Virus genome (UHGV): UHGV-0099111
Reading direction: 5' to 3' (one strand)
Source of the DNA: a virus
DNA length: 13,865 bases
Shown here piece by piece: positions 3,001 through 6,000 of the stretch. A program made the position numbers. Numbering within the stretch: the first letter of the stretch is position 1; each line of letters begins with the position of its first letter.

Positions 3001-6000
3001 AACGTTGATGTTGTTTGGCTTCAGCACGGCACTTCGTTAAATGGAGCGAATGATGAAGATACTCTTTCATTTGTTGGCAAATTAAAAAAAGGGTTAGTGC
3101 GCGTGGTTGGTGAGGCAATTCTTGGTGTTGATGGTGCCATCGAGATGACCGAAGAGCGCGATGGGTGGCTCAAGATTTATAGCGATGATCCAGATGCCTT
3201 TGGTCTTCGTGTGAAAGGAGACAGCATGTGGCCCAGAATAAAATCAGGAGAATATGTACTCATTGAGCCTAACACCAAAGTATTCCCGGGTGATGAGGTG
3301 TTTGTCAGAACCGTTGAAGGACACAACATGATCAAAGTTCTTGGCTATGACAGAGACGGAGAATACCAGTTTACAAGCATCAACCAGGACCATAGGCCAA
3401 TAACGTTGCCTTATCATCAAGTAGCAAAGGTGGAGTATGTGGCTGGTATTCTGAAGCAATCTCGCCATCTGGATGACATCGAGGCAAGGGAGTGGCTGAA
3501 AAGTTCGTGACTTCATCGTCACATAGCTGATAGCCAATGGCCTGAAGAGACGTTTGGGTGATAAGAGAATATCTGATAGTAGGCGTGGTTACTTTGCTCT
3601 CGGTTGTTGCGATCGTGCTTATGGTGGCCTGATGAGGTGTTTGGTTATCAGGAGTACGCATGAGGATAGGTATTGCTTTTCCGGTGATAGTGTTCATCGT
3701 GGCTGTGGCGTTTATGGCGTGGTTTGTCGTGGGTGGGTATGCGACGCCGGGTGGTTGATGAGACGTTTGGGTGAGATTGATGATGTAAGAGAGGTCGCAG
3801 AGATGCGGCCTTTTTTTTAATTGTCAAAACTCACAACCACGCACCCATGAGAATCTTTTTTTCACTCATGGCAATCATGACATTGACTCACACCACTTCT
3901 TTATGCCAGGATCATTTCAATCCAGAAAATCCTGGAAAATGATCTACTTAGGTGGAATATGCAACTTCTAACGAAAGAAAAGTTCTTTAGCTTTGTTGAG
4001 AACTACGAGCGCCTAACAGCGTCCAGTTCCAGAACAGCAGAGAATATTCAGTCGGTATGTCAACGCGTTGAGGTTTTTATACCTTCTGATTCACCTGCTG
4101 ATGCATGGGATGTACAAGGCATCGTTGATAGATATGCAGAGACCGTATCACTCAGTGAGGACAGCAAACGTTCATATAGCAGCCGCTTCAATAGCGCTGT
4201 ATCAAAGTTCATTGCTTATGAGAAAGGGGAAGATGTGAAGGCTAAGCCAAAGCCAAAGCGTCAACGTTCTGCTACAACAAAGCCTGTAGAGGAAAACTCA
4301 GTGAAGACTTTTGAATTGCCAATCCCATTGCGGGGCGATCTAATTGTCAACATTGGCAACCTACCTCGCGACCTCACAAGGGAAGAGGCAAAGCGGATCA
4401 GCAATATTATTGAGTCGTTTGCAATGTTTGACGATCTCACAAAAGAATAAAGCCCCGTTTGCAGCGGGGCTTCATAAGTGGAAGTTTTGGAAACTTCCTG
4501 AGTACAGGTTAACTGTTACCCACTAACTTAGACAATTAGAGGATAACGGTTGGCCGGGGCAAACGCAAGACTGTAAGGGATTACAGTCTGGGTTTAAATA
4601 CAGGTAAATCGTTATGATGGCACATGATGTAAATCGTGATGACTATATCTACGAACACGACAAACCGGTTTATGTGCGCAGCTACTGCCGCGTACGTTTC
4701 GGTGAACTCGAAAATGTTCGTCAGCACTTTCGTTCATATCCGAACTGCTGAGTAAGTATTGTCTAACCAGCCCGGCCTCAGCGCCGGGTTTTCTTTGCCG
4801 CACGATCCCCATCTAAAGACACATAACCAATTGTATTTATTTCAAAATTAATAGATACAACTCACTAAACATCGCAATTCAGATCTCTCGATCACCTTCC
4901 AAGCCACACCCCCCTGCAAAATATAACCCCATAAAATACAAAACGTTATAAAAAACTAATCATATTTAGAACATTTTGTATTGACTCAATAAAGTACACA
5001 TCGTACTATTTAGCCATCAGCAGGACGCACTACTCACCAGGGCGGTGAATATACAACGATTCAGAGATGAATCTACGAGGCTGAAAAGCCTAATAACCAA
5101 AGTGAACTTTGGGATGCGATGAAATGCAGCCCGTTGAGGCAAGCCGAAGATAAGCACCGGCCATTGCATCACCAAAGTTCATCAGGAGGTCACTATGACA
5201 CGCAGAACAGCTTTCAATGGCTCAGCATCAGGTCGTCGTCGTGAGCGTCGTGCAGCGCTCCAGAATGAGATTACGGCAAGCTCAGAAGTATTACACCGCC
5301 CTACTCTAAGCAGAGCGCAGATTCAGGCTAAAGGTACTCACGAAACGCCTGAGCGCATAGAAGACGCTAAGCCAATTAAGTTCATGGCACAGGACGTGAT
5401 CTGGCAACAGAAAGAATACAGACGCAATCTGGAGCGAGCGGCCATTGTGTACGCGAATGAGTTTGGACATAAGCAACCAGAAACTGGTGTATGTCTTCCA
5501 AACGTAGCCATTTACGCGGCAGGCTACCGGAAATCAAAACAACTGACGGCGAGGTGACTTGTGTTGGTCGCCAGAAGCAACGCGGAAAATCAATTCCAGC
5601 TTATTACGATTGAGGTGGTCATGCTCAAGAAAGTCAAACGCCGACTTTACAAAGAAGGTAGATATTCATGCCAGTTGCCAAAATGCGACACAACAAAATG
5701 GAGTGTCGATGATTGGTGTAACTGGATAGATAGATACGGAACTTGGTGGGATAAATAACAGGTAACTTAAGCGTATTTACTTTCGCGGCAAACCACTTAT
5801 TTGAGGTGATATATGGAAGAAGAATTTGAAGAGTTCGAAGAGCATCCGCAGGATGTGATGGAAAAATACCAGGACTATCCGTATGACTGCGACTATTGAT
5901 AAGAATCAATGGTGTGGGCAATACGAGCGGCGGCAATGATTGCCGGATGTGGCGCTTTACGCCACTGGACATCGCAGCAGAAAATCGGTTACGGCGCGTT

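What the first reader, a model, noticed from the sequence alone, without database searches (positions are those of the whole stretch)
3540..3779. Three degenerate direct repeats bracketing a hydrophobic mini-ORF just after cI
A motif of the form tga(a/t)gag..gtttgg.t occurs three times, with an exact 15-mer gagacgtttgggtga at 3546-3560 and 3759-3773. The first and last copies bracket an RBS-preceded 32-aa ORF encoding a single hydrophobic helix, the kind of product seen in type I toxins or small membrane modulators. The segment is GT-rich on the plus strand and ends at a strong terminator, so it would be co-transcribed with cI from pRM. Alternatives are protein-binding sites or a structured RNA.
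Basis: seen in the sequence. Interest (0 to 1): 0.6.

Follow-up and report, generated by a model that had tools for sequence, protein, structure and literature searches.

The report
Repressor-tail relics flanking tiny membrane genes
The three repeats are leftover copies of the last ~24 bases of a lambda-type repressor gene; they are recombination scars that bracket two tiny membrane-protein genes (one a known YoaK-family member) behind the prophage repressor, which makes this an instructive but largely ordinary piece of phage mosaicism.

Summary
The repeats are real: R1 3538-3561, R2 3625-3648, R3 3751-3774. They are not operators or a structured RNA. Each is a copy of the 3' end of lambda-type cI (…QWPEETFG-stop); R1 matches lambda cI at 20 of 20 bases. 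Here they sit as relics behind an unrelated H-19B-type cI.

They bracket two mini-genes, not one. An overlooked 24-codon ORF (3558-3632) lies between R1 and R2; it is also present, unannotated, in phi80 and therefore in DH10B/DH5alpha. Its exact sequence already carries that name in NCBI.

Homology to other phages starts and stops at the repeats and at the terminator (3787-3816). The same R1-to-terminator unit sits behind at least 4 repressor types. Alleles lacking exactly the R2-R3 unit exist.

Best reading: these are repressor-tail relics serving as short homology patches that shuffle small membrane-protein cassettes. The cassettes are probably co-transcribed with cI in lysogens. A type I toxin reading is not supported. 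Interest is modest.

The parts
2803..3510 (+). cI repressor, H-19B type (HTH + S24 peptidase), ending …EAREWLKSS-TGA. It has no lambda-type tail of its own.
   Evidence: Pfam Peptidase_S24 and HTH_3. It is 97-99% identical to the cI of H-19B and Stx phages, and that homology stops at 3561-3566.
3513..3536 (+). Short relic resembling lambda's own post-cI spacer (…CATAGCTGATA…), which is itself a relic of the 3' end of a third repressor type (…IIGRVFWSSHSW*).
   Evidence: 18 of 25 bases match lambda 14 nt after its cI stop. Lambda's 36-mer matches the true gene end in L026/L122 at 28 of 36, against a shuffle maximum of 22.
3538..3561 (+). R1: relic copy of the lambda-type cI 3' end (TGG CCT GAA GAG ACG TTT GGG TGA = WPEETFG-stop).
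   Evidence: 20 of 20 bases identical to lambda cI codons 231-237. The same sequence is the true in-frame gene end in mEp234 and in about 60 IMG/VR loci.
3558..3632 (+). ORF24, MIREYLIVGVVTLLSVVAIVLMVA. This is an unannotated small hydrophobic ORF of the 'MREYLIVG' family. Its GTG start overlaps the TGA of R1 and its last three codons lie in R2.
   Evidence: There are 71 copies and 9 DNA variants; all 6 variable sites are at codon position 3. Diverged same-length relatives occur in L271/L225 and L277. It is present unannotated in phi80 and DH10B.
3625..3648 (+). R2: degenerate relic of the cI tail (TGGCCTGATGAGGTGTTTGGTTAT). It is the 'GATGAGGTG' variant and has lost the stop codon.
   Evidence: This variant was found only as a relic, typically behind PQTYRKHG-type repressors.
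3650..3654 (+). Shine-Dalgarno sequence AGGAG for ORF32.
   Evidence: Read from the sequence; it lies 5 nt before the ATG at 3660.
3660..3758 (+). ORF32, MRIGIAFPVIVFIVAVAFMAWFVVGGYATPGG, a YoaK-family small membrane protein.
   Evidence: NF033821 scores 63.6 bits against a cutoff of 32. PF28021 is on record for it. The exact protein is named YoaK family in NCBI.
3751..3774 (+). R3: relic of the cI tail (GTGGTTGATGAGACGTTTGGGTGA), overlapping the last codons and stop of ORF32.
   Evidence: Homology to L090 (98.3%) begins at 3756.
3787..3824 (+). Intrinsic terminator (13-bp stem plus T-run). It is the usual partner of the cI tail in 'cI-R-terminator' units of other phages.
   Evidence: The same GGTCGCAGAGATGCGGCCTTTT follows R directly in L126, L076, L020, L028 and L260.

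Best explanation
The segment is the cargo slot of a lambdoid immunity region, equivalent to lambda's rexAB position between cI and its terminator. The three repeats are vestigial copies of the last 7 codons plus stop of a lambda-type cI gene. They were left behind or carried in when repressor modules and small cargo genes were exchanged between heteroimmune phages.

This tail (R) is the real gene end in many phages and a relic behind many other repressor types. It therefore offers a 20-24 bp homology patch at which ordinary single crossovers can join any repressor to any downstream cargo, probably helped by phage Rad52/Red-type recombinases. The same crossovers can add or delete whatever lies between two R copies. 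Two such R-bounded mini-cassettes sit here in tandem: R1-ORF24-R2 and R2-yoaK-like-R3, followed by the terminator.

Both ORFs probably encode single-helix inner-membrane peptides made in lysogens from the cI (pRM) transcript. ORF32 has its own strong RBS. ORF24 starts at a GTG overlapping the relic stop codon.

Shown: the identity of R with cI tails, breakpoints at R, with/without alleles, family membership of ORF32, and coding-type conservation of both ORFs. Inferred: co-transcription, the recombination mechanism and the membrane function. The physiological role (host-membrane modulation or superinfection exclusion) is a guess.
For: 1. R is a cI tail. Lambda cI ends CAGTGGCCTGAAGAGACGTTTGGCTGA. 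In mEp234 and in 68 S24 repressors of the sampled loci it is the in-frame end …QWPEETFG*.
2. R persists as a relic behind at least 6 other repressor types: H-19B, phi80, …IIGRVFWSSHSW*, …FWYSVLL*, …ETKLRLV* and …HRIYRRKR*.
3. Breakpoints sit at R. Homology to Stx/H-19B phages ends at 3562-3566. Homology to phi80 is exactly 3538-3645. In a BLAST against all fetched loci, HSP ends pile up at 3561-3567, 3642-3647 and 3816-3817, and HSP starts at 3531-3538 and 3756.
4. The identical R1-to-terminator unit lies behind at least 4 repressor types and before 2 different cargos. Homology to the window runs only from 3523-3538 to 3817.
5. L225 and L243 carry R1-ORF24-R-terminator, which is the window minus the 126-bp yoaK unit. 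Their hybrid R is what an R2 x R3 crossover would give.
6. At least five different inserts are R-bounded: the ORF24 family, two YoaK variants, a 25-aa ORF, a 113-aa ORF and a 145-nt spacer. Their right-hand junctions fall at different positions within R, which indicates independent events rather than a fixed site-specific crossover.
7. The three R copies have separate ancestries.
8. In loci found through YoaK rather than through R, the downstream R decays to varying degrees, which points to weak constraint.
9. ORF32 belongs to the YoaK family.
10. ORF24 shows coding-type conservation.
11. The window encodes a Rad52/22-family recombinase at 8766-9473. Such enzymes drive mosaicism through short or diverged homology (PMC3945230; PMC2327257).
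Against: How the first R-X-R unit arises is not reconstructed. It needs at least one illegitimate event per cassette.

YoaK genes in another lineage are flanked on both sides by the tail of a different repressor type (…PQTYRKHG*; L182, L132). That recurrence hints at a more systematic process than I can demonstrate.

R1 and R3 share a perfect 15-mer, and the ORF24 start and stop both lie inside R copies. R may therefore have been co-opted for translational coupling or as coding sequence.

Many loci were retrieved by exact R or ORF24 patterns, which inflates apparent conservation and breakpoint clustering.

A homology patch of 20-24 bp is short for efficient recombination. No transcription or translation data were available.
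Confidence: 0.78

Rival explanations
1. The repeats are functional cis elements on the cI mRNA. They act as intercistronic units (stop codon, purine-rich stretch, GTG/ATG) that couple translation of each downstream mini-ORF to the ORF before it, or as RNA processing or stability signals linked to the terminator.
For: The ORF24 GTG overlaps the TGA of R (GTGA), and in phages with a true lambda-type cI this gives a classic coupling arrangement (L090, L221). In L080-type loci GGTGAT of R sits 3 nt before the yoaK ATG. R is very often the element immediately preceding the terminator.
Against: ORF32 has its own AGGAG and does not start in R. R2 has lost both the GTG and the stop codon. In unbiased samples R decays freely downstream of YoaK while the terminator stays intact (L173, L195). 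The hairpin is weak and not conserved. There is no Rfam match. Junction positions within R vary.
Confidence: 0.1
2. This is a type I toxin-antitoxin or similar membrane-toxin module: the hydrophobic peptide is a toxin held in check by an antisense RNA.
For: Both ORFs are short single-helix hydrophobic peptides, like Hok, Ibs, Ldr and TisB.
Against: There is no promoter-like site on the minus strand in 3540-3830. No Rfam antitoxin or sRNA family matched. The ORF belongs to the YoaK family, whose K-12 member is an expressed, uncharacterised small protein handled as an ordinary membrane protein in the RseP screen. The gene sits in the sense direction in the constitutively expressed repressor operon of many prophages.
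Confidence: 0.04
3. This is a dedicated site-specific cassette system, integron-like. R would be a recombination site recognised by a recombinase that inserts circular mini-cassettes at the end of cI and duplicates the site.
For: Cassettes are flanked by the same repeat. Arrays of 1-3 cassettes occur. Very compact promoterless ORFs lie between the sites. The same phenomenon occurs with a second repressor tail.
Against: No integrase or other recombinase lies next to the array. The only hint is 17 bits against a cutoff of 220 for ORF163. R lacks an inverted-repeat architecture. Right-hand junctions fall at different positions in R for different cassettes. Relics of five or more repressor tails occur in arbitrary order, including microhomology joins such as GATGAG. 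All this fits general recombination.
Confidence: 0.05
4. The repeats are repressor or other protein-binding sites, acting as extra operators or looping sites.
For: Three spaced copies of a conserved motif lie near the immunity genes.
Against: The repeats have no dyad symmetry. They do not resemble the operator-like palindromes between cI and cro (ACTTTCAGT-type). The same motif lies behind at least 7 repressors of different specificity. It is simply a coding sequence in many phages.
Confidence: 0.02

Closest known systems
YoaK (E. coli K-12 b4676; NCBIfam NF033821, Pfam PF28021), a 32-aa small inner-membrane protein of unknown function
   Same: ORF32 has the same length and shares the invariant residues M1, I3, G4, F7, P8, I13, W21, F22, G26 and P30. 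It is 69% identical to K-12 YoaK and scores twice the model cutoff. Like K-12 yoaK-yoaJ, it sits next to a second tiny hydrophobic ORF of 24 codons.
   Different: It is prophage-borne, directly behind the repressor gene, not behind dgcP. Its 24-codon neighbour lies upstream rather than downstream and is not recognisably YoaJ. The chromosomal copy has no R flanks.
3' end of phage lambda cI (NC_001416 complement 37227-37250, …QWPEETFG-stop)
   Same: R1 is identical over 20 nt (23 of 24 including the stop region). R2 and R3 are diverged copies.
   Different: Here the sequence is non-coding for cI. The resident cI is H-19B type and ends 27 nt upstream of R1. The tail is present three times.
Lambda rexAB / moron slot between cI and the immunity terminator; phage 434 hex
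   Same: The position is the same (after cI, before the terminator and pL/N), and expression from pRM in lysogens is expected. Other phages carry HigBA, HicAB, DUF6932 or ParA-like cargo at the same slot. The 434 hex gene is a precedent for a second product from the repressor mRNA (PMC3564112).
   Different: The cargo here is two peptides of 24 and 32 aa, not an abortive-infection or toxin-antitoxin system. No function is known.
Short or diverged homology traces ('shoulders') at mosaic borders of lambdoid phages, produced by Red/Rad52-like recombinases (Martinsohn 2008, PMC2327257; De Paepe 2014, PMC3945230)
   Same: Conserved patches lie exactly at the borders of exchanged modules. A Rad52-family recombinase is encoded in the window.
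   Different: The patch is a specific gene-tail relic of only about 24 bp. It is reused at least three times in tandem, so it also bounds mini-cassettes. The cited work did not, as far as I could find, describe this element.
Type I toxins (Hok, Ibs, Ldr, TisB, ShoB)
   Same: Short hydrophobic single-helix ORFs.
   Different: No antisense RNA gene or promoter was detected. The ORF belongs to a different family and sits in the sense orientation in the repressor operon.
Integron gene cassettes
   Same: Compact promoterless ORFs lie in tandem, each bounded by a repeated site and read from an upstream promoter.
   Different: There is no integrase and no attC-type imperfect palindrome, and the junction positions vary.

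Membership tests
YoaK family small membrane protein (NF033821 / PF28021) | Whole-protein HMM score above the curated cutoff | tested here: met
   63.6 bits against a cutoff of 32, E = 9.3e-18, full-length 1-32/32. PF28021 is on record for the identical protein.
YoaK family small membrane protein (NF033821 / PF28021) | 32 residues with the conserved M[RK]IG..FP … WF … G…P pattern | tested here: met
   Alignment with K-12 YoaK and three phage variants gives 10 invariant columns. All 43 distinct genes have 32 codons.
YoaK family small membrane protein (NF033821 / PF28021) | Evolves as a translated gene (purifying selection) | tested here: met
   Summed column entropy by codon position is 19.4 / 14.5 / 44.9. 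Synonymous and non-synonymous codon differences are 9624 and 9846.
YoaK family small membrane protein (NF033821 / PF28021) | Protein made and located in the inner membrane | not testable with these tools
   Only the K-12 homologue has been tagged and detected and used as a membrane substrate.
Lambda-type cI 3' end (repeat identity) | Sequence identity to the terminal codons and stop of lambda-type cI | tested here: met
   R1 matches at 20 of 20 bases. R2 is 85% and R3 75% identical to R1 over 20 nt.
Lambda-type cI 3' end (repeat identity) | In frame at the end of a long S24 repressor ORF (a functional tail) | tested here: not met
   In the window the in-frame run upstream is 11 codons for R1 and 22 for R3. 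These copies are relics, not a gene end.
Type I toxin-antitoxin | Small hydrophobic toxin ORF | tested here: met
   ORFs of 24 and 32 aa, each a single hydrophobic helix.
Type I toxin-antitoxin | Overlapping or adjacent antisense RNA gene with its own promoter | tested here: not met
   No sigma-70-like site on the minus strand in 3540-3830, and no Rfam sRNA match at E <= 1 apart from two sub-threshold chance hits. A consensus scan is a weak test.
Type I toxin-antitoxin | Toxicity on overexpression | not testable with these tools
   No experiment was possible.
Integron-like cassette array | Adjacent tyrosine-recombinase integrase | tested here: not met
   Pfam and NCBIfam scans of the neighbouring ORFs show none. 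ORF163 gives only 17 bits against a cutoff of 220.
Integron-like cassette array | attC-type imperfect inverted repeat at each cassette end, with a fixed crossover point | tested here: not met
   R contains no inverted repeat. Right-hand junctions differ between cassettes.
Mosaic-border homology patch (homologous or homeologous recombination joint) | Homology between otherwise unrelated genomes begins or ends at the element | tested here: met
   Sampling is partly biased because loci were retrieved through the element.
Mosaic-border homology patch (homologous or homeologous recombination joint) | Alleles exist that differ by exactly one repeat-to-repeat unit | tested here: met
   The window and L078 compared with L225 and L243.
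Mosaic-border homology patch (homologous or homeologous recombination joint) | Elevated crossover frequency at the patch in phage crosses | not testable with these tools
   Needs an experiment.

The most novel reading that the evidence does not exclude
Repressor-gene tails (R = WPEETFG-stop, and likewise the PQTYRKHG-stop tail) act as portable homology arms of a recombinase-independent cassette-exchange system. That system assembles tandem arrays of lysogen-expressed micro-membrane-protein genes behind heteroimmune repressors. The cargo includes YoaK, the unannotated 'MREYLIVG' 23/24-mers, '…LWLM[KR]P' 25-mers and a 39-mer family. These peptides would form an unrecognised class of lysogenic-conversion or superinfection-exclusion factors. 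One of them would be silently present in phi80 and hence in DH5alpha/DH10B.
Probability: 0.25. Interest if true: 0.6.

Novelty: new member of a known kind. Interest (0 to 1): 0.36.

Why it matters

For phage evolution, it gives a clean, sequence-level example of how a 20-24 bp relic of an essential gene's end becomes a reusable crossover point. That point links any repressor to any cargo and adds or removes mini-cassettes.

For small-protein biology, the slot behind cI in many enterobacterial prophages carries one to three tiny hydrophobic ORFs. Gene callers, PHROGs, Pfam and NCBIfam mostly miss them. The 24-codon ORF is absent from a 15-billion-protein collection, yet its DNA occurs in about 8% of complete E. 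coli genomes and in common cloning strains. If these peptides turn out to have exclusion or membrane-modulating roles, this slot would be a convenient place to look for more.

Tried and rejected
- **Structured RNA.** Rfam found only two sub-threshold chance hits in 3300-4100. The whole segment folds only slightly better than shuffles (z = -2.07), and that is driven by the terminator. The R hairpin has z = -1.75 and is broken by the wobble variants.
- **The 88-aa ORF at 3554-3820 spanning all three repeats.** It is open here and in L078 but truncated to 32 aa in L044 and others. I rejected it as an artefact of GT-rich sequence.
- **Minus-strand ORFs of 105 and 59 aa.** They have no support.
- **ORF24 as merely a relic of a phi80-type cI tail** (IIG.V… motif; CTCGGTATTGCGAT against CTCGGTTGTTGCGAT). 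I considered this but did not test it statistically. Three diverged same-length family members with conservative substitutions make it less likely.
- **tblastn of ORF32 against phages.** It found nothing, probably because of low-complexity masking.
- **Short queries.** I worked around this with an alignment query and degenerate DNA patterns.
- **Species representatives.** A genome-contig scan for the exact yoaK-like start found nothing. The ORF24 core was found in two Enterobacter species representatives.
- **Literature.** A search for 'WPEETFG' gave 0 papers, and I found no description of these relics. Hemm et al. 2008 is not held.
- **Chromosomal yoaK.** It carries no R-like flank.
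Full report
**Setting**

The window is a lambdoid immunity region read in the opposite orientation to the standard lambda map.
- On the minus strand lie a DnaC/IstB-like P gene (337-1200), O (1185-2030), cII (2063-2359) and cro (2497-2757).
- On the plus strand lies cI (2803-3510, HTH + S24 peptidase), and much further on an N-type antiterminator (5195-5557).
- The finding therefore lies in the slot that rexA and rexB occupy in lambda: after cI and before the immunity terminator and pL/N.

**Check of the observation**

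The three repeats exist.
- The copies are at 3538-3557, 3625-3644 (85% identical to the first) and 3751-3770 (75%). The 19-mers at 3543-3561 and 3756-3774 are 95% identical.
None is expected in shuffled sequence.
- The 32-codon ORF (3660-3758) has AGGAG 5 nt upstream of its ATG.
- A 13-bp-stem intrinsic terminator follows at 3787-3816.

Two corrections are needed.
- Copies 2 and 3 bracket the 32-codon ORF, not copies 1 and 3.

**What the repeat is**

The repeat (R) is the 3' end of a lambda-type cI gene.
- In phage mEp234 the sequence CAGTGGCCTGAAGAGACGTTTGG is the in-frame end of the repressor gene.
- In lambda itself cI ends …GTC AGT… CAG TGG CCT GAA GAG ACG TTT GGC TGA, which reads QWPEETFG-stop.
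- R1 is identical to lambda over 20 nt.

I scanned IMG/VR for the 15-mer and obtained 120 loci.
- In about 60 of them the motif terminates a 211-254-codon ORF. Sixty-eight S24-type repressor ORFs end in QWPEETFG.
- In about 45 it is a relic behind a different repressor gene. These include the H-19B type (…EWLKSS*), the phi80 type, …IIGRVFWSSHSW*, …FWYSVLL*, …ETKLRLV* and …HRIYRRKR*.

In several phages R is followed directly by the same terminator seen here, GGTCGCAGAGATGCGGCCTTTT (L126, L076, L020, L028, L260). A unit of cI tail plus terminator looks like the basic arrangement.

**The repeats mark recombination joints**

- Megablast homology to H-19B and about 146 Stx-phage records covers cI and stops at 3562-3566, the 3' edge of R1. 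H-19B continues from there into a HigB/HigA-like pair.
- Homology to phi80-carrying E. coli (DH10B, DH5alpha, TOP10 and others) is exactly 3538-3645, which is R1-ORF24-R2.
- In a BLAST of 2501-5200 against all fetched loci, HSP ends pile up at 3561-3567, 3642-3647 and 3816-3817. HSP starts pile up at 3531-3538, 3659-3660 and 3756. This clustering is partly built in, because many loci were retrieved through R.
- The long repressor-module HSPs (about 1060 nt, 97-99% identical) and the downstream-module HSP (L090, 3756-4792, 98.3%) were not selected that way. They still end or begin at R.
- The identical R1-ORF24-R2-yoaK-R3-terminator unit occurs behind at least four unrelated repressor genes and in front of two different cargos, a ParA-like 339-aa gene or ORF163. 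Homology to the window is confined to 3523/3538-3817.
- L225 and L243 carry R1-ORF24-R-terminator with the window's own post-R3 sequence. That is the window minus the 126-bp R2-to-R3 unit, the product expected from an R2 x R3 crossover.

**The array was assembled from different phages**

It did not arise by duplication in place.
- The R2 variant (GATGAGGTG) occurs in IMG/VR only as a relic, typically behind PQTYRKHG-type repressors.
- R1 is the GAAGAGACG variant that accompanies H-19B-type cI.
- R3 is a GATGAGACG variant attached to the terminator.

**Cassettes are bounded by repressor tails**

At least five kinds of insert are bounded by R on both sides:
- the ORF24 family (period 87 bp);
- two YoaK variants only 34-38% identical in protein (125/126 bp);
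- a 25-codon ORF (115 bp);
- a 113-codon ORF (371 bp);
- a 145-bp non-coding spacer.

The left junction is always at or just after the R stop codon, as expected if an intact repressor tail must be kept. The right junction falls at different positions inside R for different inserts. This argues for independent general-recombination events rather than a site-specific system.

Relics of other repressor tails occur too, and they occur in varying order.
- These include …PQTYRKHG*, the HTH-only …YMGRRIKGDGE* and …ETKLRLV*.
- One join uses a GATGAG microhomology.
- In one lineage YoaK is flanked on both sides by the PQTYRKHG tail (L182, L132).
- Even lambda's own 36 nt after cI match the end of the …IIGRVFWSSHSW* repressor gene at 28 of 36 bases, against a shuffle maximum of 22. 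A piece of that relic lies at 3513-3536 in the window.

The region behind lambdoid repressor genes is thus a layered deposit of repressor-gene tails.

**Are the repeats functional in themselves?**

Probably not to any strong degree.
- In loci retrieved through YoaK, which is independent of R, the R copy after the gene ranges from near-perfect to barely recognisable while the terminator is retained (L177, L171, L173, L195, L170, L201).
- R has no dyad symmetry.
- Its small hairpin is not significant and is broken by the CCT/CCA/CCG wobble variants seen in real cI genes.
- Rfam has nothing there.

A minor co-opted role cannot be excluded. The ORF24 GTG overlaps the R stop codon, and the last three codons and stop of ORF24 are R sequence read in another frame.

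**ORF32**

ORF32 is a member of the YoaK family.
- It scores 63.6 bits on NF033821 against a cutoff of 32.
- It is 69% identical to E. coli K-12 YoaK and has the same length and invariant residues.
- The exact protein is already in NCBI as 'YoaK family small membrane protein' from Enterobacteriaceae, and Pfam PF28021 is on record for it.
- Seventy-nine IMG/VR loci encode relatives.
- Forty-three distinct DNA versions (46-100% identical) all keep 32 codons.
- Summed column entropy is 19.4, 14.5 and 44.9 at codon positions 1, 2 and 3. Synonymous codon differences are as frequent as non-synonymous ones. This is a translated gene under purifying selection.
- In 36 of 51 distinct contexts a repressor-gene end, true or relic, lies within 160 nt upstream. 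The slot behind the repressor is the family's usual home in prophages.
- K-12 YoaK has been detected as a tagged protein but is described as uncharacterised. It was handled as an ordinary small membrane protein in an RseP substrate screen.
- To my knowledge its original identification is Hemm et al. 2008. That paper is cited in the reference list seen but is not held.

**ORF24**

ORF24 is unannotated in phi80, DH10B and everywhere else I looked. It is absent from NCBIfam, Pfam and PHROGs and from the 15-billion-protein collection.
- The cassette DNA matches in 455 of 5426 complete E. coli genomes and in two Enterobacter species representatives.
- Among 71 copies there are 9 DNA variants with 6 variable sites. 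All 6 are at third codon positions: 4 synonymous and 2 Met/Ile. Part of the ORF was constrained by my search pattern. In the unconstrained 3' half the count is 4 of 4.
- Diverged relatives of the same length exist. One is MMRDYLIVGTVTVLTATVIFLIVA, in tandem just upstream of ORF24 in L271, L269 and L225. Another is MREYLIVGAVTLVSLIVIAFIVV, flanked by decayed R copies in L277.
- Their differences from ORF24 are synonymous or hydrophobic-for-hydrophobic.

I therefore regard ORF24 as a probable real small-protein gene. In the window, and in 27 of the 71 copies, the ATG is ATA, so initiation would have to use the GTG at 3558.

**Expression**

Expression is inferred, not shown. The scan found no promoter-like site and no terminator-like site on the plus strand between the cI start and 3787. 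Both ORFs would therefore ride on the pRM transcript in lysogens, as rexAB does in lambda and hex does in 434 (PMC3564112).

**Mechanism of exchange**

This too is inferred. The window encodes a Rad52/22-family recombinase (8766-9473). Red and Rad52-like phage recombinases have been shown to generate lambdoid mosaics through short or diverged homology and to leave traces at the borders of exchanged segments (PMC2327257; PMC3945230).

Once an R-X-R unit exists, single crossovers at either R between collinear phages will link X to any repressor or any downstream cargo. R x R crossovers will delete it or stack it. How each first R-X-R arose is not resolved. It probably took one illegitimate join plus one homologous join. 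This is the weakest step of the account.

**Verdict**

It is partly wrong: there is no sign of a toxin-antitoxin module, and the repeats are gene-tail relics rather than binding sites or RNA structure.

The central ORF is already known by family. The relic-bounded mini-cassette arrangement and the unannotated MREYLIVG family are small additions of a known kind.

Noticed in passing
L006 (lambda NC_001416) 37191-37226, complement strand; window 3513-3536: The 36 nt right after lambda's own cI stop (ATCGGCAAGGTGTTCTGGTCGGCGCATAGCTGATAA) match the true 3' end, stop included, of a different S24 repressor type (…IIGRVFWSSHSW*, L026/L122). The match is 28 of 36 against a shuffle maximum of 22. Even lambda therefore carries a relic of another repressor's tail. 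A fragment of the same relic (CATAGCTGATA) sits between the cI stop and R1 in the window.
   Followed up: partly
L002 (E. coli DH10B NC_010473.1) 2501-2609; phi80 JX871397 34493-34561: The R-ORF24-R cassette is present and unannotated in phage phi80. It is therefore also in the phi80dlacZ-derived cloning strains DH10B, DH5alpha, TOP10, JM83, NEB5-alpha and XL10-Gold. It lies between the S24 repressor gene and an 867-bp hypothetical gene.
   Followed up: partly
L271 2180-2299 and 2312-2386; L014; L134; L089; L194; L201: Further tiny hydrophobic ORF families occupy the same post-repressor slot. One is a 39-mer (MDDLIYPILLTLLIVGLVGVFMRLDKFFFKRRSDRDEPE, with a relative MSDLVIPILITLLIIGLVGIVLRLDKVFFKRKDERDDFD). 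Another is a 25-mer ending …LWLM[KR]P, sitting just upstream of YoaK. None matches NCBIfam, Pfam or PHROGs. Arrays of up to four mini-ORFs occur (L271: 39-mer, ORF24 paralogue, ORF24, YoaK).
   Followed up: partly
window 3508-3561: The TGA stop of the H-19B-type cI (context UGA-C) is in frame with the relic. Read-through would add LHRHIADSQWPEETFG and give the protein a lambda-type C-terminus. Other repressor types (phi80, PQTYRKHG) do not keep this frame, so it is probably a 1-in-3 coincidence.
   Followed up: partly
L182, L185, L132, L162/L163 (about 40 nt either side of the YoaK gene at 3001-3099): In another lineage the YoaK gene is flanked on both sides by copies of a different repressor tail (…GKVIGSMPQTYRKHG-stop). 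Bracketing by the tail of whichever repressor lies upstream is therefore not peculiar to the WPEETFG tail. I have no complete mechanism for this recurrence.
   Followed up: partly
L148/L151/L154 and L130 (junction after ORF24): R2 is fused at the hexamer GATGAG to the 3' end of an HTH-only repressor gene (…DELYAKYMGRRIKGDGE*), followed by YoaK. This looks like a microhomology-mediated join between two different repressor tails.
   Followed up: no
window 3959-4450 (+), 4447-4475, 4612-4812 (-): More cargo lies between the terminator and N. ORF163 matches phrog_2602 (unknown function, 95 bits) and has no Pfam hit. It has a very weak resemblance to the N-terminal part of tyrosine recombinases (17 bits against a cutoff of 220). 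A hairpin terminator follows it, and then a 66-codon minus-strand ORF with no family. L090 shares 3756-4792 at 98%.
   Followed up: no
window 8766-9473 (+): A Rad52/Rad22-family single-strand-annealing recombinase (PF04098, 91.9 bits) is encoded here. This is the enzyme class reported to drive lambdoid mosaicism through short or diverged homology.
   Followed up: no
window 3554-3820 (+): An 88-codon TTG-initiated ORF runs through all three repeats and both mini-ORFs in another frame. It is truncated in other cassette contexts (32 aa in L044) and is most likely an artefact of the GT-rich strand.
   Followed up: yes
L007, L036, L114, L122 (about 90-435 nt after the cI tail): A 113-aa ORF (MAFTDLEYQAVKKEVHQF…CCFFG) with a strong GGAGG RBS is another R-bounded cassette. 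It has R, or a relic of R, on the left and GTGAAGAGACGTTTGGATGA plus the terminator stem on the right. Its family was not examined.
   Followed up: no
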